From an uncultured Prevotella sp. (GTDB lineage: Bacteria; Actinomycetota; Coriobacteriia; Coriobacteriales; Eggerthellaceae), in NCBI GenBank assembly GCA_963598325.1, contig CAVBST010000005.1, forward strand, positions 10,121 through 74,120: a stretch of 64,000 nucleotides of DNA, in the 5' to 3' direction. A model generated the notes under the pieces. It did not search any database. It was not told where the DNA came from and saw only the letters and a list, made by a program, of their open reading frames with translations. Shown one piece after another: positions 34,130 through 49,856 of this stretch. How positions within the stretch are numbered: position 1 is the stretch's first letter; each line of letters starts with the position of its first letter. The position numbers and the translations under genes were made by a program.

Positions 34130-34338
34130 GATGAACACCTTCCCCAAAAAATTGTTGTATATCTTGCCATTATAAGGGCGCAGCCAGCTGCGCAAGCCGC
34201 AAAACTGCTCGCAGTTGATTCTTGTTAACAAGGCGAAAGATAGCGAAAAGGTCTATTTCGTCGGTATTTGCCGCTTATACGCCCATCGCGCTAGGGCGTG
34301 GGCTCGAATTACAATGTACTAACAAGGAGGAGATCGGT

Positions 34339-35550: not shown

Positions 35551-36191
35551 TCACCGTTGTCCTTGCCGACGATCATGAGATGGTGCGCTTTGGCTTCAAG
35601 ATGATCTTGGACAAAGACCCGGACATCCAAGTTGTCGGCGAAGCAGCAGATGGGACGCAGGCATACGCCGTTTGCGCGGCACGCAAGCCCGACATCCTCC
35701 TGCTCGACCTCTCCATGCCCCCTGCGCAAAGCGGCCTGGTTGCCTGCGAGAAAATAGTGCGCGACCTTCCCGGTACCAAGGTGATCATCCTCACCATGTT
35801 CGCCGAGCCAGAGTACCTGTACCACACCATGAACAAGGGAGCGAAGGGCTACCTGCTGAAAAGCGCATCGCCGGCGGAGCTGCTGCGGGCAATCCATATG
35901 GTGCAGGAAGGCGATAGCTATATTCACCCCAAGATGGCAGCGGCGCTGGCGAAATTCGTGGCAGAAGGTGGCAAAGAAGCCGAATCAAACTTAGAGCAGC
36001 TCACCCCACGCGAAATGGAGGTGCTGATCCTCCTTGCCCGCGGGTTCACCAATCGCGAGATCTCCGAGCGCATCTTCCTTTCCGTGAAAACCGTAGAAGC
36101 ACATCGCTCGAAGGTATACAGCAAGCTGAACCTGAAGAACCGCGCCGAGCTGGTCGAGTTCGCCCTGCGCCACAAGCTGTTGGAACTGTAG
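35547..36191 (+). CDS. NarL/FixJ-family response regulator (REC plus LuxR HTH)
   Basis: MITVVLADDHEMVR...LLLDLSMP. C-terminal LTPREMEVLILLARGFTNREISERIFLSVKTVEAHR. ATGA overlap with the kinase stop. Confidence 0.92.
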   Translation: MITVVLADDHEMVRFGFKMILDKDPDIQVVGEAADGTQAYAVCAARKPDILLLDLSMPPAQSGLVACEKIVRDLPGTKVIILTMFAEPEYLYHTMNKGAKGYLLKSASPAELLRAIHMVQEGDSYIHPKMAAALAKFVAEGGKEAESNLEQLTPREMEVLILLARGFTNREISERIFLSVKTVEAHRSKVYSKLNLKNRAELVEFALRHKLLEL

Positions 36192-36229
36192 GCTGGCAGA
36201 GCCCAGGCCAAACGGAACGCTCGGCGAGC

Positions 36230-37177
36230 CTATTTCTTCCCGGGGGCGGAAACCTCCATGCCCAATGCGCCAGCCGGGCAGGCATCGATGCACTTGCCGC
36301 ATACCATGCAATCGCCCGCGCAAACCCTTGACTGCTCGCCTTCAAGGGCGGGGTCCAAGATCTCGGGAGCCGCAATGCAGGCCTTCTTGCAGTTTCCGCA
36401 TTTGATGCAGGCATCATGATCGATGCGCACCTTCACCAGGCCAACCTTGCCCAGCAGCTCGTAGAAGCCGCCGAGCGGGCACAGCGAGCGGCACCATACC
36501 CGATGCCCCCAGAACACATCCACCAGAACAATGGCAAGCAAGGTTATCCCGCCAACGGCGCTTCCGAATACCAGGCCCTTGTTGATGAAGCTGATCGGGT
36601 TCACCACCTCGTAAACAGGAATGCTCACCAGAAGGGAAAGCACCAGCACTGCGGCGGCAACACCTATCTTCGTATGGCGCGGCAGCTTCTGCTCGGGGAG
36701 CTGGCGTTTCGGGCATACCTTCTTCCGCCATGCGTCCACTGCCTCTAAAAGCAGGTTCACCGGGCAAACCCAACCGCAGAAAGCCCTGCCACGTACTATG
36801 CCGAACACCAGCAGCGGGACCAATGCCGCCAGAAGCCAGGCGGGGTCGAACGCCTTAGACGCGGCAACCGTCTGAAGGAACACGAATGGGTCCATAAGGG
36901 TAATCGGGCCTATCTGCGAAGAAGAAAGCGTTCCCGACCAGGCGAATTGTGCCGGTGTGGCAACCGATTCCGTAACCGGGTCGCCCTGCAGGTCGGTTCC
37001 CATAATCGCCCAACCCGACGCAACAACGGGCACCAGGAAGAACAGCAGCACGAGCACCTGCACGCAATGGCGGGCGATGCCCCACTTATGGCGGCCTTTC
37101 TTCACCGGCGAAGGCTGCGCTTGCGGCGAACCGGCGGAGCAACCGCGCCCCTTATCCGTTTTGGAGTCGTCCAACAT
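36230..37177 (-). CDS. napH: NapH-like membrane quinol dehydrogenase ferredoxin subunit
   Basis: TM helices, CGWVCP and WCRSLCPLGG motifs, and two C-terminal 4Fe-4S motifs (CIKCGNCKKAC, CMVCGKCIDACP). Confidence 0.85.
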   Translation of the reverse strand: MLDDSKTDKGRGCSAGSPQAQPSPVKKGRHKWGIARHCVQVLVLLFFLVPVVASGWAIMGTDLQGDPVTESVATPAQFAWSGTLSSSQIGPITLMDPFVFLQTVAASKAFDPAWLLAALVPLLVFGIVRGRAFCGWVCPVNLLLEAVDAWRKKVCPKRQLPEQKLPRHTKIGVAAAVLVLSLLVSIPVYEVVNPISFINKGLVFGSAVGGITLLAIVLVDVFWGHRVWCRSLCPLGGFYELLGKVGLVKVRIDHDACIKCGNCKKACIAAPEILDPALEGEQSRVCAGDCMVCGKCIDACPAGALGMEVSAPGKK

Positions 37178-37189
37178 GGAAATCCCGCC

Positions 37190-37462
37190 TTAGCGCAAGC
37201 TCGGATCGTCTTCGAAATTGACGTAGATAAGGTTCACGCTCAAAACCCCTGGCACATCCTGGAACTTCGCAGCTGCATCGGCCGAGGAATCCACTGTTTC
37301 CGACTCAAGGGTCACCACCAGCTTCGACTCGACAACCTCGTGCACCTCAACACCCTCCATGGTGGAAAGGGCCTGGGCAACCTTGGTCGTGGAATCGGAA
37401 ACGGTATTCACCACCAAGCTCGAGATAACCACGCTACTCACCGGCCTTTCGTTGCTGCACAT
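37190..37462 (-). CDS. napD: NapD-like Tat proofreading chaperone
   Basis: 90 aa, with the SSLVV...GVEVHEV...KLVVTLE...GVLSVNLIY pattern of NapD. The start codon is uncertain. Confidence 0.75.
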   Translation of the reverse strand: MCSNERPVSSVVISSLVVNTVSDSTTKVAQALSTMEGVEVHEVVESKLVVTLESETVDSSADAAAKFQDVPGVLSVNLIYVNFEDDPSLR

Positions 37463-37793
37463 GGCAGCTGCCGCACAGGGAATGCGCTGCGTCTATCTTG
37501 TGCGACTGCCTGTTCTCGCCCACATAATGGTTGTCGGGCATCTTACCGGCCTTTTTCAGGAACGGGTCGGCCTCGCTGCTCGAACCATGGCAGCCGTAGC
37601 AGCCTTCCGCACCCAAGCTCTCATAACGGCCCTCGTGGGCAACGGAGAGCATGGGCGCAGCGCCTTCGGGCGTATTGAAGGTCTCGGACGGCGAGGTGAT
37701 GGCGTTCGTGGAATAGCACCCGCCCAGGGCGCATGCAGAAAGCATGAGCCCCGAGACGGCTGCCACAATGACGATGTTCCGCTTCATCTTCAT
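37434..37793 (-). CDS. napB: Dihaem cytochrome c, NapB-like, predicted lipoprotein
   Basis: ATG at 37793 after AGGAGG. Signal with LSAC/LGGC lipobox. Two CXXCH motifs (CYGCH, CGSCH). Confidence 0.8.
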   Translation of the reverse strand: MKMKRNIVIVAAVSGLMLSACALGGCYSTNAITSPSETFNTPEGAAPMLSVAHEGRYESLGAEGCYGCHGSSSEADPFLKKAGKMPDNHYVGENRQSHKIDAAHSLCGSCHVQQRKAGE

Positions 37794-37805
37794 GGCTCGC
37801 ACCTC

Positions 37806-40394
37806 CTAGACCTTTTCGATGCGAACGGCGGTTTTCTTGTAGTCGGGCTCCTTCGAAAGAGGGCAATAGACCTCTTGCTGGGCAAGGTTGACCAGGGTCT
37901 CCTCGGCGAAGAACGGTATATAGCACATATGATGGGTCGGCTGCGTTCGTCCTGCACTGGAAACCGTGCACTCAAACGAGCCCCAGCGGCTGGTAACCCT
38001 CACGCGGTCGCCGTCCTTCACGCCGATCTCGTCCATGTCCTGGGCGCAAAGGTCCATCAGGGCCTCGGGCAGGGCGTTGTCGAGCTCGGGCACGCGACGC
38101 GTCATGCTGCCCGTATGCCAATGCTCCAGCAGACGGCCGGTAACCATGTAGAACGGGTACTCGCTATCGCGGATCTCGGCAGGAGGCTCATAAGGATGGA
38201 AGGTCACGCAGGGTTTGTGGTCGGCGGTCTTGTAGAACGAGATGCCATCGGTCTTGTCGGTTTCACCCCACTTCTGAACGTTCCAGGTGTCGTAGCCGTC
38301 TTCCTGCTTCCCGGCACCGTTGAAGCGCCACTTTGTGGCGTACCATTTGCCGTCGATCTGCTGGGTAGGCCACGTAAGGCCATGCTGGGTGATGTACTCG
38401 TCGTACGGCGCCAGGCGCTTGGCGGTAAGCTTGAGCGGGCTCCACCCTTCCTTCTTGTCCAGGTTGTCGTGGATGCGCAGCACGCGCTCGCTGGAATAGC
38501 TGTTCTCGGCCGGGTCGGGGTTCGAGAAGGTACGGTACTCGTTCCAGATCTCGCGGCATACATCCCGTTGATTGTCGTACTTGAAGTCGCCCGCATCCTT
38601 GTCGTACCACTTGCCGAACAGGGTATCGAAGGCGTCGTTGTCGCCGATCTTCTCGCCGTCGAGCACGCGCTTGGCGATCTCCATCAGCATCCACAGGTCC
38701 CAACGGGCGTCACCCGGAGGATCGCAGGCCTTCTCGAACACGGCCGTGCGGCGCTCGCCGTTGCCGAACATGCCCTCGCGCTCGATCCACATGGCTGCGG
38801 GAAGCACAACATCGGCGTACGCCGTGGAAAGCGTTGGGTACACCTCGGAAACCACGATGAAGGTATCGAAGATCCCCGTATGCTCGCCGTCCCTGCCAAG
38901 GAAGCGGTTGAGGTCGGTCATGGATTGGGCCCAGTTGTTGTGGGCGGTCCAGATGAAGTCCATGTTCCCGTTCGACATCTCGCGGAATATCTTGGTGGTG
39001 TGATACCCCGGAGTGGAAATGTCCTCGAGCCAGTTCTCGGGCAGATCCCAAACCGCTTCGGTGTAGCGGCGGTGCTGGGCATTGGCAACAACCAGATCGG
39101 CCGGCAAGCGATGGCTGAACGTGCCCACCTCGCGAGCGGTGCCGCACGCAGAGGGCTGGCCGGTAAGGGAGAAGGGCCCGTTGCCCGGCTTGGCGATCTT
39201 GCCGGACAGCAGATGGCAGTTGTAGAAGTTCTGGTTAACCCACGTTCCACGGTTATGCTGGTTCGCGCCCATGGTCCACAGGCTCATGATCTTGCAATTC
39301 GGATCGGCGAATGCCTCGTAGAGCAGCTGCAGGTCTTCCACGGAAACCCCGGAAAGCTGGCTTACGTACTCATAGGTGTAGGGTTCCACAAGCTTGCGGA
39401 ATTCCTCAAGGTCGATCACGGTAACCTTTTCGGCGCTCTTGCCCTTGTCCGATTTGTCGTACGAGTCGCGGTTCGCGAAATCGTTGTTGCCGATGTCTTC
39501 CTGGCCGTGCTTGAAGCACACATGGTCCTTCACGAAGTCCTTGTCGTAGGTCTCGTTTTCAAGCAGGTAGCGGCAGATGCAGTTGGTGATGGCCAGATCG
39601 GTGTTGGGTTCGAAAACCATCACCTTGTCGGCCAGCGCGCTGGTGCGATTCCTTACGGTGGTTAGGTCGTAGTGCTTCACGCCGTCTTGCTGCTTGCGCG
39701 CGGTGATGCGGCTGAACAGCATGGGATGGGCTTCGGCCATGTTGGCGCCCCAGGTAATGAACAGATCGGCATAGTCGATGTCGGCATAGCAGCCGGCAGG
39801 CTCGTCGGTGCCGAAGGTGTTCATGAACGCCACAACCGCAGATGCCATGCACAGGCGGGCATTCGGGTCGATGTTGTTGGAGCGCAGGCCCGCCTTCCAG
39901 AACTTGGACGTGGCATAGCCCTCCAAGATGGGCTGCTGCCCCGAGCCCCAGAACGCCAAGCGGCTCTTGTCCTTCTTCCAGGTTTCCCGCATCTTGCTTG
40001 CAACCAGGTCAAGCGCCTCGTCCCACTCGGCTTCGCGGTACACCTTCCGATCGTTCGACCCCTTGGTGGATTTATCCAGGCGGATAAGCGGCTTGGTAAG
40101 ACGGTCGTTGCCCTTCAGGATCTTGGCCAGGTAGTAGCCCTTCACGCAGTTCAGGCCACGGCTGGAATCGTTGTTCGGGTCGCCGGTGATGCTGATGATC
40201 TTGCCGTTCTGGCTCTCAATCAGAACGCCGCAGCCGCAGCCGCAGAAGCGGCATACGCCAACCGTGGTGGTTACGCTGTTCTTGTCGATAGACTGGTTCG
40301 CCTTGGGGGCACAGCCAGCAAGCGAACCCGAGACAGCAGCACTGGCCGCAGCGATGGCAACCAGCTTGATGAAATCTCGCCTTGAGTACTCCAT
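37806..40394 (-). CDS. napA: Periplasmic-type nitrate reductase catalytic subunit NapA (Mo-bisPGD), Tat signal plus lipobox
   Basis: MEYSRRDFIK...SLAGC. The 4Fe-4S motif CRFCGCGCG. NapA-specific blocks (RGLNCVKGYY, SNNIDPNARLCMASAV). RBS AAGGAGGAG. Confidence 0.92.
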   Translation of the reverse strand: MEYSRRDFIKLVAIAAASAAVSGSLAGCAPKANQSIDKNSVTTTVGVCRFCGCGCGVLIESQNGKIISITGDPNNDSSRGLNCVKGYYLAKILKGNDRLTKPLIRLDKSTKGSNDRKVYREAEWDEALDLVASKMRETWKKDKSRLAFWGSGQQPILEGYATSKFWKAGLRSNNIDPNARLCMASAVVAFMNTFGTDEPAGCYADIDYADLFITWGANMAEAHPMLFSRITARKQQDGVKHYDLTTVRNRTSALADKVMVFEPNTDLAITNCICRYLLENETYDKDFVKDHVCFKHGQEDIGNNDFANRDSYDKSDKGKSAEKVTVIDLEEFRKLVEPYTYEYVSQLSGVSVEDLQLLYEAFADPNCKIMSLWTMGANQHNRGTWVNQNFYNCHLLSGKIAKPGNGPFSLTGQPSACGTAREVGTFSHRLPADLVVANAQHRRYTEAVWDLPENWLEDISTPGYHTTKIFREMSNGNMDFIWTAHNNWAQSMTDLNRFLGRDGEHTGIFDTFIVVSEVYPTLSTAYADVVLPAAMWIEREGMFGNGERRTAVFEKACDPPGDARWDLWMLMEIAKRVLDGEKIGDNDAFDTLFGKWYDKDAGDFKYDNQRDVCREIWNEYRTFSNPDPAENSYSSERVLRIHDNLDKKEGWSPLKLTAKRLAPYDEYITQHGLTWPTQQIDGKWYATKWRFNGAGKQEDGYDTWNVQKWGETDKTDGISFYKTADHKPCVTFHPYEPPAEIRDSEYPFYMVTGRLLEHWHTGSMTRRVPELDNALPEALMDLCAQDMDEIGVKDGDRVRVTSRWGSFECTVSSAGRTQPTHHMCYIPFFAEETLVNLAQQEVYCPLSKEPDYKKTAVRIEKV

Positions 40395-40434
40395 GATCTC
40401 CTCCTTGAACCTCGTCGCATGCAAGCGGCGCGGG

Positions 40435-41040
40435 CTACTTCCCCTTCTTCTCTTGGGCGGCGATGCTCACAACCTTCATCGCAACCTTCGGATCGCGCAC
40501 TACGCATCTCTGAACGCATAGCCCGCATCCGGTGCATTTTTCCTTGTTCACGGTAGGGATGAACTTCGTATGGATGGAATCGTTCTCCATTGCCTGGAAC
40601 TCGATGGTGATGGCCTCGTCGATAAGCGGGCACACGCGATAGCACACTTCACAGCGCATCCCCTGATAGGCGATGCAGGTGTTCTCGTTGATCTTCGCGT
40701 ACCCCATGTTCACATCGTGCTTTTCGGACACATCGCGAAGCGCCCCTGTTGGGCACGCTGCCACACAGGGAAAATCGGCGCAAAGGCGGCAGGCGCGGTT
40801 CTCCACATCGAGCGTCGGCGTGCCGGCGGCGGCGCCCTGCGTCAAATCCGCAGGATAGATGGCCTTATGGGGGCACGCTTCGATGCATTTCCCGCATTTT
40901 ATGCAGCGGGACATGAAATCCGATTCGCCTTGGGAACCAGGCGGCCGCAAAAGGGAAGACTTGCCCGTTGCGGCAGAGTAAACCCCTTCAGCCACCACAG
41001 CAGCAGCGGCCACGCCGGCAATGACGTTGCCAAACCCCAT
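40435..41040 (-). CDS. napG: NapG-like poly-ferredoxin (4x 4Fe-4S)
   Basis: CIKCGKCIEACP, CRLCADFPCVAACP, CEVCYRVCP and CTGCGLCVQRC. Has an N-terminal hydrophobic helix but no twin-arginine motif. Confidence 0.8.
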   Translation of the reverse strand: MGFGNVIAGVAAAAVVAEGVYSAATGKSSLLRPPGSQGESDFMSRCIKCGKCIEACPHKAIYPADLTQGAAAGTPTLDVENRACRLCADFPCVAACPTGALRDVSEKHDVNMGYAKINENTCIAYQGMRCEVCYRVCPLIDEAITIEFQAMENDSIHTKFIPTVNKEKCTGCGLCVQRCVVRDPKVAMKVVSIAAQEKKGK

Positions 41041-41074
41041 CGTTCCTCCTCATAGCTCCGAGCGCGCTTGTCCT

Positions 41075-41086
41075 TGAACGCGTTCA
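41075..41086. promoter_or_regulatory. Perfect 12-bp palindrome TGAACGCGTTCA, 35 nt upstream of the napG start
   Basis: The sequence is self-complementary. It sits in the 127-bp ccmD-napG gap, downstream of a GATAAT hexamer (minus strand, 41104-41099). Confidence 0.5.
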
Positions 41087-41167
41087 GTCCCTACAAGGAT
41101 TATCGCACGTGAGAAGGCCAGGTGGGGCATCTTCGCCCGCCCAATACCGAAAGCAGCGGGTAAACCC

Positions 41168-41365
41168 CTACCCCAAGCGCTGCGTGCCTTCCCGCTCCTT
41201 ACGTTCCTCTTCAAGGACGTCGAGGCGGCGGGCCAAGTTGGATTGACGCCGGAACTGAACCAAAAGCCAAACCAGAAGGGCAGCAAGCACCAAGGCATAA
41301 GCCGCTATCAAGTAAGGAGCAGAGGGAATTACCGTGCTGTAGATCTCTTCTAGGATCGGGTTCAT
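41168..41365 (-). CDS. ccmD: CcmD-like small haem-export protein
   Basis: 65 aa with one TM helix (YLIAAYALVLAALLVWLLV) and a charged tail. The position directly after ccmC supports the call. Confidence 0.7.
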   Translation of the reverse strand: MNPILEEIYSTVIPSAPYLIAAYALVLAALLVWLLVQFRRQSNLARRLDVLEEERKEREGTQRLG

Positions 41366-41367
41366 GA

Positions 41368-42129
41368 TCAGGCCCTCTCTTTCTCTTCAAGAGCACAGGT
41401 GCGCTCGGCAAGGCGCGCATTGCGGAAGCATATGCGGTACATGGCAAACGCCAACGCCAGCATGCCTGCACAGCAGACAGCTACCGTAAACGCCATATCG
41501 GGAGCAAGCCCGCCCTCGCGGAACACCACCGGGTGCAGGCTAGACGGAAGGATGCGCGTAACGGCGAAGGTTATGGGAACATCGGCGAAGGCAACAAGGC
41601 CCAAAACCGCGCTGAACGCCGCACTTCGCTCCGGATCGTCAACGGCGTTGCGCAAGACGAAGTAGCCAAGGATAACCAGAACAAGCACCAAATAGGTGGT
41701 AAGGCGAGGCTCCCACGTCCACCACACGCCCCATTCGAAGCGCGTCCACATCTCGCCGGTGAACATAACTGCAAGGGCAAACACCAGCGATATCTCCATG
41801 CAGCATTTTGCGCAGGTGTCGAAACGCTGGTTGCGCGTAGCAAGGAACCGGATGCAGTAGTAGGCCATGAAGGCCAGGCCCGCCATAGAGGCAAGCGCGG
41901 CCGGCATATGGAAATAGAAGATCTTCTGCGAAAGCAGCAGCTTCGAGGAAACCATGCTGCCGCCTATGAGCTCGGCCCCATCTACGCGGGCACCGCTCAC
42001 CGGCGAGGCGTACAAAAACGCCAGCAAGAACCCGCCTAAAAGCCCTATCGCAGCAACTGCGAGGGCAAGCGGAACCAGCTTGTCGGGCCACTGGCCGATC
42101 TCAGGCAAGGGCCTTTTTCTTTTGCTCAA
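41368..42129 (-). CDS. ccmC: Haem exporter / haem-handling protein CcmC
   Basis: WWD motif WGVWWTWEPRLT. TTG start at 42129 after AAGGAGG. The track ORF is over-extended into ccmB. Confidence 0.88.
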   Translation of the reverse strand: MSKRKRPLPEIGQWPDKLVPLALAVAAIGLLGGFLLAFLYASPVSGARVDGAELIGGSMVSSKLLLSQKIFYFHMPAALASMAGLAFMAYYCIRFLATRNQRFDTCAKCCMEISLVFALAVMFTGEMWTRFEWGVWWTWEPRLTTYLVLVLVILGYFVLRNAVDDPERSAAFSAVLGLVAFADVPITFAVTRILPSSLHPVVFREGGLAPDMAFTVAVCCAGMLALAFAMYRICFRNARLAERTCALEEKERA

Positions 42130-42139
42130 AACAGCCTCC

Positions 42140-42862
42140 TTACGCTGAGACCACGAAATCGTAGAGCACCCATGAGAGCAGCCCCATAACCACATCGTAC
42201 ACACCGATGATCGCCACCGAGGGGACGAAGACAGAAGAAAAGCCATCGCCCCCAACAAGGCACGCCGAAGTGGCGCATACGCAAGCGTAGAGCAGGGGGA
42301 ACAGCAGAGGAACGGCGAGCACTGCCAACATGACGTCCCGCCCGCGCGTGCTTGTTGTGACGGTTGCCAGCAAGGTGCCAACCGCAGCCATCCCCAACGT
42401 GCCCAAGGCCAAAGGAGCCAGGGCAAATTGCACGGTTTCGCCAAGCTGCTGGCCCTCCAGGAAGAAGAAGACGAACACCGGCGTCACTAGCAGTTCGACT
42501 ATTGCCAAGAACAGGAAGTTCGATGTTGCCTTCGCCAAGAACACCACAGACCGGTCGATGGGGGCGATAAGGATGGCATCGAGGCAATCGTTTTCCCTCT
42601 CGTAGGCAAACGACCTGTTCAACCCAATAAGGGAGGTAAACACGATGAGCACCCAAAGAAGCCCAGAGGCCACGCCGCGGACGTCTTCGCCCAAAGAAAC
42701 CTGCGAAAGGGCAACTCCGTAGACGATCAGGACCAGCACCGCATACAGCACCATGGAGCTGAGCATGTCGAACGTGTGGAACTCGCGCTCTACGTCCTTG
42801 CGAAGAAGGGCGCGGTATTGGGAGAGCATCGAAGGCGATCCGCCTGTGCGAGCACCCATCAC
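42140..42862 (-). CDS. ccmB: Haem exporter membrane protein CcmB
   Basis: Six-TM CcmB-like protein. The start overlaps the ccmA stop. Confidence 0.85.
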   Translation of the reverse strand: MMGARTGGSPSMLSQYRALLRKDVEREFHTFDMLSSMVLYAVLVLIVYGVALSQVSLGEDVRGVASGLLWVLIVFTSLIGLNRSFAYERENDCLDAILIAPIDRSVVFLAKATSNFLFLAIVELLVTPVFVFFFLEGQQLGETVQFALAPLALGTLGMAAVGTLLATVTTSTRGRDVMLAVLAVPLLFPLLYACVCATSACLVGGDGFSSVFVPSVAIIGVYDVVMGLLSWVLYDFVVSA

Positions 42863-43572
42863 GCACCTCTCCTTCCAACGGATTCGCGATAGACCTGCTC
42901 GAAGCTGCGGCCCGCCATTTCATCGCGGCCGCAGAAGAGCTTCACCTTCCCCTTTGCCAAAACAAGCAAGTGGGTGCAGAGTCCATACCCCTTCGCAAGG
43001 TCGTGGCTCACCATCACGATGGTGCGCCCCTTGCGCTCCCGTGCCAAGATACCGTCCAGATCATCGGCGGCGTAAGGGTCAAGGCCGGAATACGGCTCGT
43101 CGAGCAAGAGGATCGCCGGATCGTTGACCAAGGCGCGTGCGATTGAGAGGCGCTGGGTCATCCCACGCGAATAGGATGAAACCACATCGAAGCGGCGATG
43201 GTAGAGTCCCACATCCCTGAGCAGCTTTTCCGCGCGGACATCTGCATCCCCCACCCCGTAAAGCCGTGCGAAGAGCTTCAGGTTCTCGTAAGCCGTAAGC
43301 TCGGGGTACAGAAGCGGGCTGTGAGACACGAGCCCGATAAGCGCCCTTACCTGCTCGGGGCGCTCGAGCGCATCTACCCCTTGCAACGCAACCTTGCCTT
43401 CGGTTGGCCGGGCAAGGGTGGCCATCAGACGAAGAAGCGTGGTCTTCCCTGCGCCATTGGGGCCGAAAACGCAGACGAAGGCCCCTTCGGGCACCGACAG
43501 GCTGACATCGGCCAGGGCCGAACGGGTGCCGAAGCGCTTCGACACTCCCTGCAATTCCAGGGCAACTCCCAT
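42859..43572 (-). CDS. ccmA: Haem exporter ATP-binding protein CcmA
   Basis: Walker A GPNGAGKT, ABC signature YSRGMTQRLS, Walker B LLLDEP. Confidence 0.88.
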   Translation of the reverse strand: MGVALELQGVSKRFGTRSALADVSLSVPEGAFVCVFGPNGAGKTTLLRLMATLARPTEGKVALQGVDALERPEQVRALIGLVSHSPLLYPELTAYENLKLFARLYGVGDADVRAEKLLRDVGLYHRRFDVVSSYSRGMTQRLSIARALVNDPAILLLDEPYSGLDPYAADDLDGILARERKGRTIVMVSHDLAKGYGLCTHLLVLAKGKVKLFCGRDEMAGRSFEQVYRESVGRRGA

Positions 43573-43573
43573 A

Positions 43574-45685
43574 TCAAGCAGCCTCCTTGGCTCGAGCCGG
43601 CCCGCGCTTCAGCTTCCCTACGAAAGCCAAAGCCATTCCGCAGCTCAACAGGGCAAAGCCAGCCCAAACCACGCTGATAAGGGGGTTGATCCGCACGTCC
43701 AGGGAAAGGTAACCCGTTTTGGCGTTCACGCCCTTGTACACCACAAACAAGTCCTCGGTCGGGAACCCGAGCACGCTTGCATTGAGCTTCTGCTGCTGGG
43801 TGCTTGCCACCAGCTGGACAGACGGGCTTGCCGTTCCAACCTGACTGCCATCATGCAAGACGTTGAAGTCTACCTGGTACATAACGTCCGAGCTTTCCAG
43901 CTGGGTTACCGACTGGCCCTGGTAGGCGAGCTCGTAGCCGCCGATGCTGAATGTTCCGTTAGCGGAATCGGTCGCAGAATCATATTCCAAATACCCCGCA
44001 TTCTCGGTTACGTACATCGAGGAGCCGATAAGGCCCACGAGCATAAGCCCCATTGCCGCATGGCACAAAAACCCACCTATGGGGGCCGCGGTTGCCGCAT
44101 GGCTTTTTATGGAGCGGCCGATCATGCAAACCGCATTCGCCATAAGCACGCTGGCCACGGCAAACCCCACAACTGCCAAGCCGTTGTAGTACCACGATGG
44201 CCCCATTTCCAGCAGCGCTTCGGCATTGCTCCCGCCGGCAGCCACCGTTGCATCATACGCAGGCAGAAGAACCTGAGCGAAGTACAGCATCAGCACCGCG
44301 AAAACCACCGCAGCAACAGCTGCAGGCAGCCGCAGCTTGCGCAGGAGCTTCTTCTTGTCGGTCTTCGCCCATCCAAGCATCGGGCCTATCGCGATAAGCA
44401 GCAAGTACCCTATGCCCAACGGCCGGGCTATCGCATTGAAGGTTCCCGTGCTCACCGATTGCCCGCCGAACGGCAAGAACGCCGGAAGCGCCGAGGATAT
44501 TGTCATATAGCAGAGCAAGCATGAGGCCAGCAGCACGAAAACGCAGTTGATGTAGAACGCAACGTCTTTGGTGAGCATGCTTTCCGCATCCGCCCGCTCT
44601 TTTGGTGCGAAGGTTTTGCGGCGCAAAGCCAAGCCGATAGCCGCCGAGCCGACGGAAAGCACCATAAGCACAAGGAAGAACACCAGCGAAACCGCATCAC
44701 CCTCGAAGGCATGTACCGACTGCACCAAGCCGGAGCGGCTGATGAATGTTCCCACGATAACGAAGCAGAACGTCAAAGCGGCGCACATGATGGCCCAACC
44801 CTTGAACATGCCGCGCTGCCGGTACACCGTGAAGCTATGCACAAGGGCGATGCACATGAGCCAGGGCAGCAGGCTTGCGTTCTCGACAGGGTCCCAGCCC
44901 CAGTAGCCGCCCCACCCCAGGCAAACATAGGCCCATACGGCGCCAAGGCCGATACCGATCGTCAGGAACAGCCACGCGAATTGGGCATACGGAGAGCAGC
45001 GCTTCACCCATTGCTCGCTGGCATCGTTGCATACGAGGGCCGCGATGGCGTAAGCGAAAGGAACAGTAAGGCCGGCATAGCCCAAAAACAACGTGGGGGG
45101 ATGCACCGCCATTGCCCAGTGTTCAAGCAGGGAGTTCATCCCCAAAACGCTGCCGGCCGAAGTAACCTGCATAGTTGCGTAGTCGAAGTACTTCTCGTCG
45201 GTGGCCGTGAAGGGCATATTGTCTTCGCTGAACAGCAGCACCCCAACGAAGAGCGCCAGCACAAAGGCCATCACCATCAACGCAACGCTGTCCAGGCGCT
45301 TAGGGCTGTTTGCCTCTTTGCGGGAAACCAGCACGGCGAACATCCCGATAAGCCATGCCCAAAATAGCAGCGATCCTTCGCGGCCAGACCATAAACCACT
45401 AAGTCGGTACATCCAGCTCAGGCTGCTGGTGTTGTCTGAGCGGTTGTCCAGCACGTATTGAATCGTGCAATCGCCCGCCATGAACGCGAAAACCAGCACG
45501 GCGCACGATACGGTAAGCCCTGCAAAGCAGACGATGCTTGCCGTGCGCCCCGCCCAATCCAGGGCTTCCGCTGTGTCGGCGTTGCCCTTCGCGGCCATTC
45601 TTGCGCCGAATCCAAGGCATACCACGCAAAGCACGCAGCCGAAGAACGCCAAAAGCAACCCGACAAGCCCAATCAAGGAAAGCAT
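43574..45685 (-). CDS. ccmF: Cytochrome c haem lyase / haem-handling protein CcmF
   Basis: 703 aa, multi-TM, with the WWD motif WGGYWGWDPVENASLLPW. Confidence 0.92.
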   Translation of the reverse strand: MLSLIGLVGLLLAFFGCVLCVVCLGFGARMAAKGNADTAEALDWAGRTASIVCFAGLTVSCAVLVFAFMAGDCTIQYVLDNRSDNTSSLSWMYRLSGLWSGREGSLLFWAWLIGMFAVLVSRKEANSPKRLDSVALMVMAFVLALFVGVLLFSEDNMPFTATDEKYFDYATMQVTSAGSVLGMNSLLEHWAMAVHPPTLFLGYAGLTVPFAYAIAALVCNDASEQWVKRCSPYAQFAWLFLTIGIGLGAVWAYVCLGWGGYWGWDPVENASLLPWLMCIALVHSFTVYRQRGMFKGWAIMCAALTFCFVIVGTFISRSGLVQSVHAFEGDAVSLVFFLVLMVLSVGSAAIGLALRRKTFAPKERADAESMLTKDVAFYINCVFVLLASCLLCYMTISSALPAFLPFGGQSVSTGTFNAIARPLGIGYLLLIAIGPMLGWAKTDKKKLLRKLRLPAAVAAVVFAVLMLYFAQVLLPAYDATVAAGGSNAEALLEMGPSWYYNGLAVVGFAVASVLMANAVCMIGRSIKSHAATAAPIGGFLCHAAMGLMLVGLIGSSMYVTENAGYLEYDSATDSANGTFSIGGYELAYQGQSVTQLESSDVMYQVDFNVLHDGSQVGTASPSVQLVASTQQQKLNASVLGFPTEDLFVVYKGVNAKTGYLSLDVRINPLISVVWAGFALLSCGMALAFVGKLKRGPARAKEAA

Positions 45686-45686
45686 A

Positions 45687-46382
45687 CTATTCCCTCACCG
45701 CCACGCTTGTTGCGTTGAACACGCCGTTGCCGTCTAAGGCTCCCTGAATAACCAATTTGGTACTCGGGGTATCCTGGCCTTGCGAAATGGCGCCTTCGTA
45801 GTGAACGGGAACATGAACATCAGCCTCGGCTGCGTCATTCAACGTGAACCGTATCGGCTCTTCTACGGTGCCGATACCCGAATCGGCAAGAACGCCTTCG
45901 AGCTTTACCGTCTTGCCGATCATCGACTCCCCATATCCCAGCAAGGCGGATACCGAAAGGGCATCGGAAGCATTTTCATATTTCGATGGGCACTTGGTAA
46001 CCAATTCCGTGGCAACTAAGGTTCCGTCATCCGAGATTCTGCCAGTGCATATTGCCGAAATGCCATTGCCGAACGTTGATGAAACGCCCTTATCGTAGGA
46101 AACGCGAACGGTCGGGGCCTTTCCGGAAGCCGCATCAGCAGATGCCGCGCCCTCGTCGCACAACGAGAAGGTCAAAACCCCTTGTTCATCAATTTCGTAC
46201 GAGTTGTCAACAACCGTTCCCGATACCTCTACCTTCTGGCCGGCAAAGCCCCCTTCGGCGCAGTCGGCCACCGAAACCGCTTTGGCCGCAGTGCTTCCCC
46301 CGATCACGGCAAACGCTATCAAGACGGCGATGACGATCAAGCCCGCAACAACCACAAGACGGCGTTTCATCTTTGCGTTCAT
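45687..46382 (-). CDS. ccmE: Haem chaperone CcmE variant: TM anchor, an OB domain ending in CPSKY (CxxxY), and a second CcmE-like OB domain
   Basis: Aligns to CcmE (GQKVEVSGTVV..LTFSL.D..VRVSYDKG..ICTGRISDDGTLVATELVTKCPSKYE). Residues ~141-231 repeat the same pattern without a haem-binding motif. Confidence 0.8.
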   Translation of the reverse strand: MNAKMKRRLVVVAGLIVIAVLIAFAVIGGSTAAKAVSVADCAEGGFAGQKVEVSGTVVDNSYEIDEQGVLTFSLCDEGAASADAASGKAPTVRVSYDKGVSSTFGNGISAICTGRISDDGTLVATELVTKCPSKYENASDALSVSALLGYGESMIGKTVKLEGVLADSGIGTVEEPIRFTLNDAAEADVHVPVHYEGAISQGQDTPSTKLVIQGALDGNGVFNATSVAVRE

Positions 46383-46484
46383 AGTTCCAATCTCCTACAC
46401 AATACGAGCCCCCAACAAGGTCTATGCCAGTTAGGGGCCCGCACCAGAGCTTCAACTCATCTTATCCCGAATCAGAGACCCAGC

Positions 46485-47237
46485 TTACTGTTTCTCGTTG
46501 TCATACGATCCGTAAATGGTACCCAACTCGGAGGCTTCCTGTGCAGAAAGCCATCCGTCGGGGATATCTGCATACGAATCATCGTGGCAGGACGTGCAGA
46601 CAAGAACCGATGCTCTATGGGACTTATGGCAATCAGTGCAGGTGTACTGGAAATGATGCCAAGAATGGGGGTTTCGGGTTAGGTTCGAGGTTGCCTGAGT
46701 CAGATCCGACTTACTCATGTTGTGGCAGCTCTCGTTCAGGCAGAATTCGGTGTTGTCGTCGTAGTTCTCGTACGCAGTTAGGTTGTCCAGATTTCTCTCG
46801 CTCAATGGAGCCGTGTATCTGCCGGTCATGAAGTTAACGCCCTCGGTGGCCTGCTCTTTAAGCGTAGGTTTGTGGCAGTCCAAGCACGTCACATCACCGT
46901 AGGCCCTATGAGTGGCAGCCATCATGGCGCTGGCGTCTTTAACCTCGTTGCCCCATTTGTCTACCGATGCCTTACCGGGCTCAGATTCGTAGGTAGGAAC
47001 ATAGCCATCCATCGAGGCATGGCAGATTGCGCCGCAGAAACTCGGGGATTCGTGCCAAACCATCATTCCCGCGCCAGCAGCAACGAATACCACCAAGCAG
47101 ACCGAAAGGGTGATGTGCCACCTCTTGAAACGGCCGACCTTCTTCTGGCCCCATGAATGAAGTTTCCCGGGCTTCTTCTCCTCTTGAGCCGGAGAATCGC
47201 TGGAGACGACCTCTTCAGATTGCTTTTCGTCATCCAT
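46485..47237 (-). CDS. Membrane-anchored multihaem cytochrome c (NapC/NrfH-like position and topology)
   Basis: One N-terminal TM helix. Haem motifs CGAICH (CX3CH), CLDCH, CLNESCH (CX4CH), CTDCH and [16 protein letters not shown]. Confidence 0.8.
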   Translation of the reverse strand: MDDEKQSEEVVSSDSPAQEEKKPGKLHSWGQKKVGRFKRWHITLSVCLVVFVAAGAGMMVWHESPSFCGAICHASMDGYVPTYESEPGKASVDKWGNEVKDASAMMAATHRAYGDVTCLDCHKPTLKEQATEGVNFMTGRYTAPLSERNLDNLTAYENYDDNTEFCLNESCHNMSKSDLTQATSNLTRNPHSWHHFQYTCTDCHKSHRASVLVCTSCHDDSYADIPDGWLSAQEASELGTIYGSYDNEKQ

Positions 47238-47303
47238 CGTGAATCCCTCCTTACCCTCCTTAAGAAGCTACGCGCAGTCGAACCCCTCTGGTGCGCGCTT
47301 CTA

Positions 47304-47321
47304 ATTATAGTAACGTGTTCA
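47304..47321 (-). promoter_or_regulatory. Putative -10 box TATAAT (47304-47309) immediately preceded by the palindrome-family site (47310-47321), upstream of the cytochrome/ccm operon
   Basis: The minus strand reads GTGAACACGTTAC-TATAAT, about 70 nt upstream of the ATG at 47237. Confidence 0.45.
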
Positions 47322-47374
47322 CGATTCAATGATAAGCGCAGCCGCGCATACCTAGGGCAAAACCCTACACTTAT

Positions 47375-47402
47375 AAGCCCGTTCTACGAACGGGCTTTTT
47401 TC
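47375..47402 (+). terminator. Strong plus-strand intrinsic terminator with no plus-strand gene upstream
   Basis: AAGCCCGTTC-tac-GAACGGGCTT followed by TTTTT on the plus strand. The flanking genes are both on the minus strand. Confidence 0.6.
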
Positions 47403-47930: not shown

Positions 47931-47978
47931 TCTGATACGGATCAGGAAACAGAACTTAAAGGTAATCGTGGATGATCC

Positions 47979-48407: not shown

Positions 48408-48410
48408 GGC

Positions 48411-49856
<1,446 letters not shown>

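What the first reader, a model, noticed from the sequence alone, without database searches (positions are those of the whole stretch)
36230..47237. Self-contained 11-kb respiratory module: membrane multihaem cytochrome, ccmEFABCD and napGABDH, in an apparently actinobacterial (monoderm) context
Twelve co-directional genes with tiny or overlapping junctions encode four things together. These are a NapA-type Mo enzyme with its dihaem NapB and chaperone NapD, the NapGH quinol-oxidising pair, a NapC/NrfH-like membrane cytochrome, and a complete System I haem-delivery set (CcmA, B, C, D, E, F). By established knowledge, Gram-positive bacteria normally mature c-type cytochromes with System II (ResBC/CcsBA), and Nap is classically a diderm periplasmic enzyme. 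Here the maturation genes lie between the cytochrome and the reductase genes. That arrangement suggests a dedicated and possibly laterally acquired package. No ccmG, ccmH or ccmI is present in the window. The order E-F-A-B-C-D matches what I recall for the minimal Desulfovibrio-type Ccm system.
Basis: partly seen in the sequence, partly recalled or inferred. Interest (0 to 1): 0.65.

Follow-up and report, generated by a model that had tools for sequence, protein, structure and literature searches.

The report
Nitrate reductase plus cytochrome-maturation gene cluster
A small-genome gut actinobacterium (family Eggerthellaceae) keeps the genes for an outward-facing nitrate reductase next to the genes that attach haem to its only two c-type cytochromes; each part is ordinary inherited equipment of this bacterial group, and only their joining into one cluster is special to this lineage.

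Summary
Twelve intact, co-directional minus-strand genes at 36230-47237 encode a Cgr1-family membrane cytochrome c, CcmE-F-A-B-C-D and NapG-A-B-D-H.

The host is an Eggerthellaceae (Coriobacteriia) bacterium. Its 1.86-Mb genome has no ResB/CcsA, CcmH, CcmG or CcdA.

The "imported package" reading is not supported:
- The Ccm set is the known cysteine-type variant "System I*" (CcmE motif CPSKY).
- CcmF occurs in 118 of 251 genomes sampled from the order and 181 of 401 from the phylum. ResB was found in none of the order sample.
- CcmF and NapA trees, base composition and dN/dS (0.02-0.14) all fit native, selected genes.

The cluster joins two units that sit apart in most relatives checked, including E. 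lenta: ccmEFABCD and napGABDH with a convergent nitrate-sensor kinase and regulator. Its lead cytochrome belongs to the nap-linked, not the ccm-linked, paralogue group.

Features I found in no held paper:
- a two-OB-domain CcmE
- Tat-lipoprotein NapA and lipoprotein NapB
- NapG without twin arginines
- Ccm clients limited to this cluster's two cytochromes
- no ALAD gene (probable haem auxotrophy)

An earlier report in this scan described the same System I* operon in another Eggerthellaceae genome. Interest is moderate.

The parts
46485..47237 (-). Cgr1-family membrane-anchored cytochrome c (250 aa). It has an N-terminal TM helix and five haem sites: CGAICH, CLDCH, CLNESCH, CTDCH and CTSCH. It belongs to the nap-linked paralogue group.
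   Evidence: NCBIfam NF051471 Cgr1 scores 288.7 bits (cut-off 340). PF14537 scores 36.5 bits, and PF03264 NapC/NirT only 12.5 bits. The best PDB match is the tetrahaem domain of Shewanella flavocytochrome c3. In the tree it groups with the nap-linked copies of g48 and G259 at 100/99 support.
45687..46382 (-). ccmE*, the haem chaperone (231 aa). It has a TM anchor, a first OB domain ending in C131-P-S-K-Y135, and a second OB domain with no haem-binding motif.
   Evidence: Pfam CcmE hits twice, at 53.5 and 32.8 bits. CPSKY is invariant in 31 relatives. The AF2 model (pLDDT 78) shows two barrels, and the top Foldseek hit is E. coli CcmE 8CE8_E. The motif aligns with D. vulgaris CcmE 2KCT at TKCP.
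43574..45685 (-). ccmF, the haem lyase (703 aa). No CcmH partner is encoded.
   Evidence: TIGR00353 scores 292.7 bits. The alignment to T. thermophilus CcmF 6ZMQ shows conserved His residues at aligned positions; I identify the WWD motif (WGGYWGWDPVEN) and the ligand roles from memory.
42859..43572 (-). ccmA, the ABC ATPase.
   Evidence: TIGR01189 ccmA scores 118.4 bits (cut-off 131.6), with generic ABC hits. Its position in ccmEFABCD is conserved.
42140..42862 (-). ccmB, the ABC membrane subunit. Its GTG start overlaps the ccmA stop by 4 nt.
   Evidence: PF03379 CcmB scores 82.2 bits.
41368..42129 (-). ccmC (253 aa). It has a TTG start 5 nt after AAGGAGG.
   Evidence: TIGR01191 scores 96.5 bits. 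The sequence was read. The alignment to E. coli CcmC 7F02 shows FYFHMPAA, WGVWWTWEPRLT and SLHP.
41168..41365 (-). ccmD candidate (65 aa, a single hydrophobic helix).
   Evidence: PF04995 scores 19.6 bits, E 0.001, below the 25.6 cut-off. A gene at this position after ccmC is conserved in every relative checked.
41075..41086 (.). Perfect dyad TGAACGCGTTCA in the 127-nt ccmD-napG gap, 35 nt before the napG ATG. It is a probable operator, and perhaps an internal promoter region, for napGABDH.
   Evidence: The sequence was read. The dyad is conserved in L017, L042 and L019. No factor is assigned: the Rex DNA-binding domain was not found in the genome.
40435..41040 (-). napG, a four-cluster ferredoxin (201 aa). 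Its N-terminus lacks a twin-arginine motif.
   Evidence: NF007012 NapG scores 203 bits (cut-off 269). N-termini in relatives were compared.
37806..40424 (-). napA, the Mo-bisMGD/[4Fe-4S] catalytic subunit. It carries a Tat motif SRRDFIK followed by the lipobox LAGC. The likely start is the ATG at 40394.
   Evidence: NF010055 scores 877.7 bits (cut-off 904), aligned 1-830/830. PDB matches are C. necator NapA 681 bits, E. coli 665 and D. desulfuricans 459. Cys192 aligns with residue C143 of E. coli NapA (2NYA), which I recall as the Mo ligand, and the four Fe-S cysteines are present.
37434..37802 (-). napB, a dihaem cytochrome c (CYGCH, CGSCH) with a lipoprotein signal (LSAC/LGGC).
   Evidence: PF03892 scores 21.9 bits (cut-off 25.1). 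The lipobox is conserved in relatives.
37190..37462 (-). napD, the NapA Tat-signal chaperone. It overlaps napB by 29 nt.
   Evidence: PF03927 scores 70.6 bits.
36230..37177 (-). napH, the membrane Fe-S quinol dehydrogenase subunit.
   Evidence: NF007013 scores 212.1 bits (cut-off 234) and TIGR02163 scores 205.6 bits.
35547..36191 (+). NarL/LuxR-type response regulator, convergent with napH. It accompanies nap in every relative checked.
   Evidence: It matches NarL-type equivalogs, e.g. NF007935 at 138.9 bits. Synteny was shown.
34222..35550 (+). Histidine kinase with an N-terminal NreA-like GAF domain, HisKA_3 and HATPase domains. It is a probable cytoplasmic nitrate sensor.
   Evidence: NF038250 nitrate_NreA scores 93.8 bits over residues 59-173 (cut-off 175). 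Pfam finds GAF, HisKA_3 and HATPase_c.

Best explanation
The stretch is the complete extracytoplasmic nitrate-respiration equipment of a small-genome Eggerthellaceae bacterium. It was built by placing two family-typical units in tandem.

Unit 1, ccmEFABCD, is a cysteine-type System I* machine:
- CcmABCD loads haem onto Cys131 of membrane-anchored CcmE on the outer face of the membrane.
- CcmF alone, without CcmH, CcmG or CcdA, transfers the haem to apocytochromes.
- Its only clients in this genome are the five-haem Cgr1-family cytochrome at the head of the cluster and dihaem NapB.

Unit 2, napGABDH, makes the reductase:
- NapA is exported by Tat with help from NapD and tethered by a lipid anchor. 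This is the monoderm substitute for a periplasm.
- NapB, also a lipoprotein, feeds NapA.
- Electrons come from menaquinol through the membrane cytochrome (a functional NapC equivalent) and/or NapGH.
- Nitrate is reduced to nitrite outside the membrane.
- No second multihaem enzyme such as NrfA exists, so nitrite is probably the end product of this chain.

Expression is probably set by the adjacent NreA-type GAF kinase and NarL-type regulator, and by an unassigned dyad operator before napG.

Shown here: gene content, motifs, signals, distribution, phylogeny, purifying selection, and genome-wide absence of alternatives.

Inferred: haem chemistry, the electron path, topology, regulation and operon structure.
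For: - Gene identities and motifs.
- Genome-wide absences in a 96.5%-complete assembly: only two PF01578 proteins (CcmF and CcmC), no ResB, no CcmH, no CcdA, no CcmG.
- Only two multi-CXXCH ORFs exist in the genome, and both lie in the cluster.
- TatC is present.
- The Tat-plus-lipobox of NapA and the lipobox of NapB are conserved across the order.
- The units sit apart in E. lenta and four other Eggerthellaceae genomes. There, cgr1-like-ccmEFABCD and napGABDH+RR lie hundreds of kb apart on the same replicon.
- The window's layout is kept in all carriers of the genus examined: L017, L019, L020, L021, L024 and G011.
- CcmF is present in 118/251 genomes of the order and 181/401 of the phylum. 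ResB is absent from the 150 order genomes searched; the one hit lies inside a CcmF.
- In the trees, the genus CcmF clade (100*) sits inside the Eggerthellaceae/f8 crown, and Coriobacteriia are monophyletic (100*). NapA of the genus is nested in the family-dominated clade, sister to G259.
- Composition is native: GC 58.6% against a genome mean of 59.5%, and tetranucleotide distance is smaller than in 86% of genome windows.
- The 84% nucleotide identity to G225 equals the background beyond the atp operon.
- dN/dS is 0.02-0.14.
- E. lenta is a nitrate reducer (PMC3035228).
- System I* lacking CcmH/CcmG works when expressed in E. coli, and CcmABCEF appears sufficient in Methanosarcina (PMC3601427, PMC9084895).
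Against:
- NapA, NapG, NapH, NapB, CcmA, CcmD and Cgr1 all score below NCBI's or Pfam's curated cut-offs, although the alignments are full-length.
- NapG lacks a twin-arginine signal, so the classical outward-facing NapGH model may not apply.
- The genome shows no ALAD/HemB. The system therefore needs scavenged haem, or that gene is unassembled.
- The MenA-like hit is below cut-off.
- The cytochrome could serve partners other than Nap.
- Most species of the genus lack the cluster, so a re-acquisition from a related lineage cannot be excluded.
Confidence: 0.8

Rival explanations
1. The whole cluster was brought into this genus's subclade as one unit by transfer from another Coriobacteriales lineage. 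On this view it acts as a portable nitrate-respiration cassette and is not a retained ancestral trait.
For: - Only 4 of 33 other species of the genus carry CcmF or NapA.
- Carriers are the window's closest kin: AtpD 98.5-99.8% identical, against 86-96% in five non-carriers checked.
- nap genes do cross family lines. NapA of f8/g48 is 88% identical and forms a 100* clade with the genus, while AtpD is only 76-78% identical.
- The lead cytochrome is of the nap-linked type shared with g48 and G259.
- Non-carriers have unrelated DNA downstream of atpC.
- nap and ccm are linked in three different arrangements, in g1, g21 and g48.
Against: - CcmF of the genus does not group with g48 and sits within the family crown.
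- Composition and nucleotide divergence equal the genome background.
- All carriers have the cluster at the same site after the atp operon, and their ccm genes are deeply diverged (CcmF down to 68%). This points to long residence.
- Loss in a genome-reduced genus is an equally simple account.
Confidence: 0.25
2. The package came from a diderm donor such as a Desulfovibrio-type sulfate reducer. On this view it is foreign to actinobacteria.
For: - The CcmE motif CPSKY and the lack of CcmH/CcmG are shared with Desulfovibrio System I* (PMC3601427).
- Nap is classically periplasmic.
Against: - The same ccmEFABC(D) order with a CPSKY CcmE is found in both orders of Coriobacteriia and in other actinobacterial classes. 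Coriobacteriia CcmF is monophyletic.
- NapA is closer to NapAB-type enzymes (681 bits) than to D. desulfuricans NapA (459 bits).
- Composition is native.
- NapA and NapB carry monoderm-type lipoprotein signals that are conserved across the order.
- An ancient inter-phylum transfer at the root of the class cannot be judged, because no named outgroups from outside the phylum were available.
Confidence: 0.03
3. The lead cytochrome is not part of the Nap electron path. It would be a general quinol-oxidising hub or a Ccm-associated protein, as in other Eggerthellaceae where a Cgr1-like gene heads the ccm operon, with NapGH alone feeding NapB and NapA.
For: - A Cgr1-like gene directly precedes ccmE in E. 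lenta, C. curtum and four other family genomes that have nap elsewhere.
- Eggerthella-type napGABDH clusters have no linked cytochrome.
- The NapC/NirT HMM is not met.
- Koppel et al. propose that Cgr1 donates electrons to a flavoprotein reductase (PMC5953540).
Against: - The window's copy groups with the nap-linked paralogues of g48 and G259 (100/99*). In those genomes the gene directly precedes napG and napB is missing. G259 holds a separate ccm-linked copy.
- The genome encodes no other c-type cytochrome partner.
Confidence: 0.2
4. The Mo enzyme reduces a substrate other than nitrate. The family is rich in Mo-enzyme genes (34 pfam01568 genes in E. lenta per PMC3306737).
For: NapA scores just below both equivalog cut-offs (877.7 against 904; 836.6 against 930.55).
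Against: - The alignment to NapA models is end to end.
- The top PDB hits are all NapA.
- The Mo-ligand Cys context NIDPNARxCMASAVV is conserved.
- NapB, NapD, NapG and NapH are all present.
- An NreA-type nitrate-sensor domain lies in the adjacent kinase.
- E. lenta, which has the orthologous cluster, reduces nitrate (PMC3035228).
Confidence: 0.05

Closest known systems
System I* (variant Ccm) of Desulfovibrio and archaea (Allen et al. 2006; Goddard et al. 2010; reviewed in PMC3601427; M. acetivorans CcmABCEF, PMC9084895)
   Same: - CcmE has Cys in place of the haem-binding His, within the majority motif CPSKY.
- There is no CcmH and no CcmG.
- CcmF and CcmC show the WWD motif and conserved His residues.
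- CcmD is present, as in Desulfovibrio and unlike archaea.
   Different: - The host is a Gram-positive-type actinobacterium. The review lists delta-proteobacteria, chloroflexi and firmicutes.
- CcmE carries a second OB domain. This is specific to the class Coriobacteriia; other actinobacterial classes have a 127-137 aa single-domain form.
- No CcmI or CcdA was found.
- The clients are reduced to two proteins.
- The genome lacks ALAD.
Proteobacterial Nap systems (E. coli napFDAGHBC, W. succinogenes napAGHBFLD; NapAB structures 3ML1, 2NYA, 1OGY)
   Same: - NapA is of the NapAB type, with the Mo-ligand Cys and an N-terminal [4Fe-4S] site.
- It has a Tat signal.
- The NapD chaperone, dihaem NapB and NapG/NapH Fe-S proteins are all present.
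   Different: - There is no periplasm. NapA is a Tat lipoprotein and NapB a lipoprotein.
- NapG has no twin-arginine motif.
- There is no NapC and no NapF. A Cgr1-type c3-like membrane cytochrome stands where NapC would be.
- The regulator is a GAF (NreA-like) kinase/NarL pair rather than NarXL/QP or FNR sites.
Cgr1 of Eggerthella lenta (cardiac glycoside reductase operon; PMC5953540) and its core-genome paralogues
   Same: - It is of similar size, 250 aa against a 204-position Cgr1 model.
- It has an N-terminal anchor and a Cytochrom_c3_2 domain.
- The same five-site pattern (CX3CH, CX2CH, CX4CH, CX2CH, CX2CH) is seen in the Cgr1-like genes of relatives.
- The Cgr1 HMM scores 288.7 bits.
   Different: - The score is below the equivalog cut-off of 340.
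- It is linked to nap and ccm, not to a flavoprotein reductase.
- It belongs to a separate nap-linked clade.
Nap in Gram-positive Desulfitobacterium hafniense (napDFBAG; PMC3306737)
   Same: A Nap-type enzyme in a monoderm that lacks Nar.
   Different: - The gene set and order differ.
- The window's cluster has no NapF; napH is not among the five genes listed for D. hafniense.
- Whether D. hafniense uses System I or II was not examined here.
ccmEFABCD operon in another Eggerthellaceae genome, reported earlier in this scan (e1-4103862)
   Same: The same six-gene System I* operon with a duplicated CcmE domain.
   Different: Here it is fused with a nap-type cytochrome upstream and napGABDH downstream, and it serves only those proteins.

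Membership tests
System I* (cysteine-type Ccm) | CcmE with Cys replacing the haem-binding His in a C-x3-Y motif | tested here: met
   C131-P-S-K-Y135 is present. It aligns to the TKCP of D. vulgaris CcmE 2KCT and is invariant in 31 relatives.
System I* (cysteine-type Ccm) | CcmA, B, C, (D), E and F are present, with the catalytic WWD and His motifs in CcmC and CcmF | tested here: met
   HMM hits. Alignments to 6ZMQ and 7F02 show the WWD and His motifs. CcmD and CcmA score below their curated cut-offs.
System I* (cysteine-type Ccm) | No CcmH or CcmG in the genome. This is typical but not obligatory: about one third of such bacteria have CcmH (PMC3601427). | tested here: met
   PF03918 gave no hit. 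The best TIGR00385 hit is 28.8 bits on a 107-aa thioredoxin, against a cut-off of 123. The genome is 96.5% complete.
System I* (cysteine-type Ccm) | Covalent haem on the CcmE Cys and production of holocytochrome c | not testable with these tools
   This needs haem staining or mass spectrometry.
System II (ResBC/CcsBA), as the expected Gram-positive alternative | ResB/CcsB and CcsA/ResC genes | tested here: not met
   Only CcmF and CcmC carry PF01578. The only PF05140 hit is an 18.3-bit match inside CcmF. No genuine ResB was found in 150 genomes of the order.
Periplasmic-type nitrate reductase Nap | NapA with a Mo-bisMGD fold, the Mo-ligand Cys and an N-terminal 4Fe-4S motif | tested here: met
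   NF010055 scores 877.7 bits over 1-830/830, just under the 904 cut-off. PDB NapA hits reach 681 bits. Cys192 aligns with E. coli C143.
Periplasmic-type nitrate reductase Nap | A Tat signal on NapA together with the NapD chaperone | tested here: met
   The SRRDFIK motif is present. NapD PF03927 scores 70.6 bits. TatC is in the genome.
Periplasmic-type nitrate reductase Nap | Dihaem NapB | tested here: inconclusive
   It has two CXXCH motifs and the correct position and size. PF03892 scores only 21.9 bits against a 25.1 cut-off.
Periplasmic-type nitrate reductase Nap | NapGH quinol dehydrogenase with a Tat-exported NapG | tested here: inconclusive
   The NapG and NapH HMMs match at 203 and 212 bits, both below cut-off. 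NapG has no twin-arginine motif here or in most Eggerthellaceae.
Periplasmic-type nitrate reductase Nap | Nitrate-to-nitrite activity | not testable with these tools
   The only indirect evidence is that E. lenta, which has an orthologous cluster, reduces nitrate (PMC3035228).
NapC/NirT/NrfH tetrahaem quinol dehydrogenases | A match to the family profile (PF03264) with a four-CXXCH layout | tested here: not met
   PF03264 scores 12.5 bits, E 0.12, against a 24.1 cut-off. The protein has five sites, two of them CX3CH and CX4CH. The resemblance is functional only.
Cgr1 family (NCBIfam NF051471) | A score over the equivalog cut-off | tested here: not met
   The score is 288.7 bits against a 340 cut-off, aligned over 5-204/204. 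It is a paralogue, not an equivalog.

The most novel reading that the evidence does not exclude
Coriobacteriia run a monoderm-adapted form of System I* in which the extra OB domain of CcmE takes over a job done elsewhere by CcmH/CcmI, namely docking to CcmF or holding the apocytochrome. In haem-auxotrophic, genome-reduced species, ccm, the nap-type cytochrome and nap have been welded into a minimal cassette. That cassette routes scavenged haem into just two cytochromes and can move between families, as nap did between this genus and g48.
Probability: 0.15. Interest if true: 0.6.

Novelty: new variant of a known kind. Interest (0 to 1): 0.4.

Why it matters
- **Textbook rule.** In the genomes sampled here, the order Coriobacteriales shows only the cysteine-type System I*, and CcmF is also frequent in other non-Actinomycetes classes of the phylum. 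I found no held paper that says so.
- **Practical use.** Attempts to make holo-Cgr1 of E. lenta in heterologous hosts failed, possibly because the maturation factors were incompatible (PMC5953540). The native ccmEFABCD described here is the obvious helper set to co-express.
- **Test bed.** This genome has seven maturation genes serving two clients in one 11-kb stretch. That makes it a compact system for three questions: how CcmF works without CcmH, what the second CcmE domain does, and how a Nap enzyme is organised on a single membrane.
- **Gut ecology.** The cluster marks which small-genome Eggerthellaceae can respire nitrate.

Tried and rejected
- **Promoter scan.** It found no sigma-70-type promoter in 35900-48100, and terminator-like hits were at chance level.
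- **Rfam.** It found nothing real in the cluster or in the 740-nt spacer; the only hit was a Trp-leader match at E 0.38.
- **Rex.** The dyad before napG looks like a Rex operator core, which I recall from Streptomyces. No Rex DNA-binding domain is in the assembly, so that reading was dropped.
- **CcdA.** The 15.8-bit DsbD_TM hit on contig 26 is a multi-helix membrane protein, probably a transporter, without an obvious CcdA-like cysteine pair by eye. It was rejected as CcdA.
- **Empty site.** In five genus members without the cluster, the DNA downstream of atpC is unrelated to the window. No clean insertion or deletion scar can be shown.
- **High synonymous divergence.** The cluster's dS is far higher than that of atpD and looked like a sign of separate history. 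The identity profile shows the atp operon is the outlier (96%), while the cluster (84%) matches the background (85%).
- **Record titles.** The titles of the nearest MAGs (Succinivibrio, Melainabacteria and others) are evidently wrong and were not used for taxonomy.
- **Desulfovibrio gene order.** Goddard et al. 2010 is not held, so the order there is unverified.
- **Elen_2528.** I could not establish whether E. lenta's core Cgr1 paralogue Elen_2528 is the ccm-linked gene.

Full report
**1. What is there**

Window 36230-47237 holds twelve intact genes, all on the minus strand.

HMM searches identify them as follows:
- a Cgr1-family cytochrome c (46485-47237)
- CcmE (45687-46382), CcmF (43574-45685), CcmA (42859-43572) and CcmB (42140-42862)
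- CcmC, whose real start is the TTG at 42129 behind AAGGAGG
- a 65-aa CcmD candidate (41168-41365; Pfam CcmD 19.6 bits, below cut-off)
- NapG (40435-41040), NapA (37806-40424), NapB (37434-37802), NapD (37190-37462) and NapH (36230-37177)

Junctions run from a 29-nt overlap to a 12-nt gap. The two exceptions are 102 nt after the cytochrome gene and 127 nt between ccmD and napG.

The flanks are:
- *Upstream:* the atp operon ends at 47979 (atpC, atpD).
- *Downstream and convergent:* a NarL-type regulator, and a kinase whose N-terminal GAF domain matches the staphylococcal nitrate sensor NreA at 93.8 bits.

**2. Host**

The window lies on contig 5 of a 1.86-Mb, 96.5%-complete assembly.

Two genomes placed in the same family by the genome tool have single contigs of 3,632,260 bp and 1,617,804 bp. 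These are the published sizes of E. lenta DSM 2243 and Cryptobacterium curtum. The family is therefore Eggerthellaceae, class Coriobacteriia, and these are Gram-positive bacteria (PMC3035228).

The nearest named records include an "uncultured Cryptobacterium sp." MAG and "Eggerthellaceae bacterium DNF00809". Several other MAG titles are plainly wrong.

**3. The maturation system**

CcmE ends its first OB domain in TKC131PSKY135. The best solved match is the D. vulgaris cysteine-type CcmE, aligned at TKCP.

CcmF and CcmC keep the WWD motifs and the conserved histidines when aligned to the 6ZMQ and 7F02 structures.

Across the whole genome:
- Only CcmF and CcmC carry the PF01578 domain, so there is no CcsA/ResC.
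- There is no ResB and no CcmH.
- There is no CcmG. The best hit is a 107-aa thioredoxin at 28.8 bits against a cut-off of 123.
- There is no CcdA. The one weak hit is a probable transporter-like membrane protein.

This is the known variant System I*, whose majority motif is CPSKY (PMC3601427). The Desulfovibrio version works in E. coli without CcmH or CcmG, and in Methanosarcina CcmABCEF appears sufficient (PMC3601427, PMC9084895).

A scan of every ORF in the genome finds only two genuine multi-CXXCH proteins. One is the cytochrome, with sites CGAICH, CLDCH, CLNESCH, CTDCH and CTSCH. The other is NapB. The seven ccm genes therefore serve two proteins encoded beside them.

CcmE is unusual in having a second CcmE-type OB domain:
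- Pfam hits twice, at 53.5 and 32.8 bits.
- The AF2 model (pLDDT 78) shows two barrels, and its top Foldseek hit is E. coli CcmE.
- The two-domain form (213-262 aa) is present in every Coriobacteriia CcmE extracted, from both orders.
- Four CPSKY/CPTKY CcmEs from other actinobacterial classes are single-domain, at 127-137 aa.

**4. The reductase**

NapA aligns end to end with the NapA models at 877.7 bits, just under the 904 cut-off. It is closer to NapAB-type structures (C. necator 681 bits, E. coli 665) than to monomeric D. desulfuricans NapA at 459 bits. It keeps the Fe-S cysteines, and its Cys192 aligns with residue C143 of E. coli NapA, which I recall as the Mo ligand.

Signal sequences fit a single-membrane cell:
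- NapA has SRRDFIK followed by the lipobox LAGC, so it is predicted to be a Tat lipoprotein. The Tat-plus-lipobox pattern is conserved across the order.
- NapB has a conserved lipobox.
- NapG lacks twin arginines here and in most Eggerthellaceae. One relative (G105) keeps SRRNFVRG plus a lipobox. The location of NapG is therefore open.

TatC is present in the genome.

**5. The cytochrome**

It is not a NapC/NirT/NrfH member by profile (PF03264 12.5 bits, E 0.12). It matches Cytochrom_c3_2 and the Cgr1 model at 288.7 bits against a 340 cut-off. Its best solved relatives are the tetrahaem domains of Shewanella flavocytochrome c3.

In E. lenta, C. curtum and four other family genomes, a Cgr1-like gene directly precedes ccmE. 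In G259 and in genus g48 of another family, a Cgr1-like gene directly precedes napG, and napB is absent.

A careful tree puts the window's gene with the nap-linked copies at 100/99 support. It does not group with the ccm-linked ones, and G259 has both types. The tree tool flags long branches for G259, so this placement carries a caveat.

The cluster is therefore a composite: a nap-type cytochrome, then ccmEFABCD, then napGABDH.

**6. Distribution and history**

*CcmF:*
- It occurs in 118 of 251 genomes sampled from the order. Eggerthellaceae have it in 32 of 47, and several other families also carry it.
- It occurs in 181 of 401 genomes sampled from the phylum, including many families outside Coriobacteriia.
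- The E-F-A-B-C(-D) order recurs in the second order of the class and in other classes.
- ResB was not found in 150 genomes of the order; the single hit lies inside a CcmF.

*NapA:*
- Orthologues occur in 52 of 251 order genomes, 22 of 47 in the family.
- Wherever checked, they sit as napGA(B)DH next to the same convergent regulator.

*Within the window's own genus:*
- Only 4 of 33 other species carry the genes.
- All carriers examined have the same layout at the same place after the atp operon. This includes G011, whose CcmF is only 68% identical.

*Trees:*
- The genus CcmF clade (100*) lies within the Eggerthellaceae/f8 crown. Coriobacteriia are monophyletic relative to other actinobacterial CcmFs.
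- The genus NapA lies within a family-dominated clade, sister to G259.
- NapA of g48, from another family, is nested with the genus at 88% identity, although AtpD is only 76-78% identical. Together with the family-dominated surrounding clade, this suggests that g48, rather than the window's genus, received nap by transfer; the unrooted tree cannot fix the direction.

*Composition and selection:*
- GC and tetranucleotide composition are native.
- Nucleotide identity to a sister species is 84% in the cluster and 85% in distal flanking DNA. The atp operon, at 96%, is the outlier.
- All twelve genes have dN/dS of 0.02-0.14.

*Recurrent linkage:* nap and ccm are linked in three different arrangements.
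- g1: cytochrome-ccm-nap.
- g21: nap then ccm, shown in the two genomes fetched (G160, G098) and inferred from hit coordinates in the other four sampled.
- g48: cytochrome-nap, regulators, then ccm.

This recurrence suggests selection for keeping the enzyme next to the machinery its cytochromes need.

**7. How it most likely works**

Haem is exported and loaded on CcmE Cys131 by CcmABCD. It is probably scavenged, because no ALAD gene was found. ALAD is also missing from 36 of 60 family genomes sampled (59 genera), at least five of which carry CcmF.

CcmF alone then attaches haem to the cytochrome and to NapB on the outer face of the membrane.

Menaquinol is oxidised by the anchored cytochrome and/or NapGH. 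Electrons pass to lipoprotein NapB and then to lipid-tethered NapA, which reduces nitrate to nitrite outside the cell. No NrfA-like multihaem enzyme exists to take nitrite further.

NapD guards the NapA Tat signal in the cytoplasm.

The NreA-type kinase and NarL-type regulator probably confer nitrate control. A perfect dyad, TGAACGCGTTCA, lies 35 nt before napG and is conserved in close relatives. It suggests a second control point, so there may be two transcription units. Its binding protein is unknown, since no Rex domain is in the assembly.

Everything in this section beyond gene content, motifs and signals is inference.

**8. Literature and earlier scan notes**

System I* is described for archaea, delta-proteobacteria, chloroflexi and firmicutes (PMC3601427, PMC9084895). 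No held paper combines Eggerthella or Eggerthellaceae with ccm genes. Koppel et al. attribute their failure to obtain holo-Cgr1 to a possible incompatibility of heterologous maturation factors (PMC5953540).

An earlier follow-up in this scan reached the same reading of a ccmEFABCD operon in another Eggerthellaceae genome, including the duplicated CcmE domain. Other first-stage notes on this window match what I found independently. They cover the CcmE, the haem motifs, the Nap signals, the GAF kinase and the dyad.

**9. Verdict**

It is wrong in treating this as exceptional or imported.

Each unit is inherited and common in the host's relatives. Only the tandem, chimeric layout and its minimal client list are particular to this genus subclade.

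The lineage-wide variant features are worth recording but are not a new kind of system:
- the two-domain CcmE*
- lipoprotein NapA and NapB
- NapG without twin arginines
- a Cgr1-type cytochrome in place of NapC

**10. Limits**

- The genome is a draft.
- Taxon names for most genomes are coded.
- No sequences from outside the phylum were available for rooting.
- No transcript or biochemical data could be obtained.

Noticed in passing
whole genome G000; family sample: No ALAD/HemB gene was found in the assembly. It is also missing from 36 of 60 Eggerthellaceae genomes sampled (59 genera). At least five of those (e.g. G084, G180, G210, G048, G240) still carry CcmF. These look like haem auxotrophs that keep a haem-attachment machine.
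   Followed up: partly
window 47895-55835 (atp operon): The atp operon is 96% identical in nucleotides to a sister species (G225) and 95% to L019. The DNA on both sides is 84-85% identical. atpD dS is 0.085, against 0.4-2.1 in the neighbouring cluster. The cause is either strong codon constraint or a recent recombination of the atp operon between species.
   Followed up: partly
window 47238-47978: A 740-nt non-coding spacer lies between atpC and the cytochrome gene. It holds a strong plus-strand terminator-like hairpin (47375-47397), although both neighbours are on the minus strand. It also holds a TATAAT at 47304-47309 (minus strand) abutting a degenerate copy of the dyad (47310-47321). Rfam finds nothing there.
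   Followed up: partly
L109 (G160:C23) and L110 (G098:C1): In genus g21 (2.7-3.0 Mb genomes) napGABDH is followed on the same strand by ccmEFABCD, with no Cgr1-like gene between. This is a second, independent nap-ccm fusion in the opposite order. It was seen directly in G160 and G098 and is inferred from coordinates in the other four sampled species.
   Followed up: partly
L035/L050 (G117:C6) and L036 (G075:C1): In genus g48 of another family the order is a Cgr1-like gene, napG-A-D-H without napB, the same kinase/regulator pair, then a divergent ccmEFABCD. Its NapA is 88% identical to the window's, although AtpD is only 76-78%. This suggests nap moved between families within the order.
   Followed up: yes
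L044 (G105:C9): This relative's NapG keeps a twin-arginine motif and a lipobox (LSRRNFVRG...ASASGC). The window and most Eggerthellaceae have lost the arginines. The ancestral NapG was probably a Tat lipoprotein.
   Followed up: no
Genome contigs records L017-L020, L024: The closest public MAGs carry organism titles from unrelated phyla: Succinivibrio, Sphaerochaetaceae, Christensenellaceae, Melainabacteria and Alloprevotella. Their contigs are 85-99% identical in CcmF to this Eggerthellaceae genome, so these are mislabelled records.
   Followed up: no
window 34222-35550: The kinase fuses an NreA-like GAF domain directly to a HisKA_3 kinase core, with no evident membrane segment. In staphylococci, NreA is a separate protein acting on NreB.
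   Followed up: no
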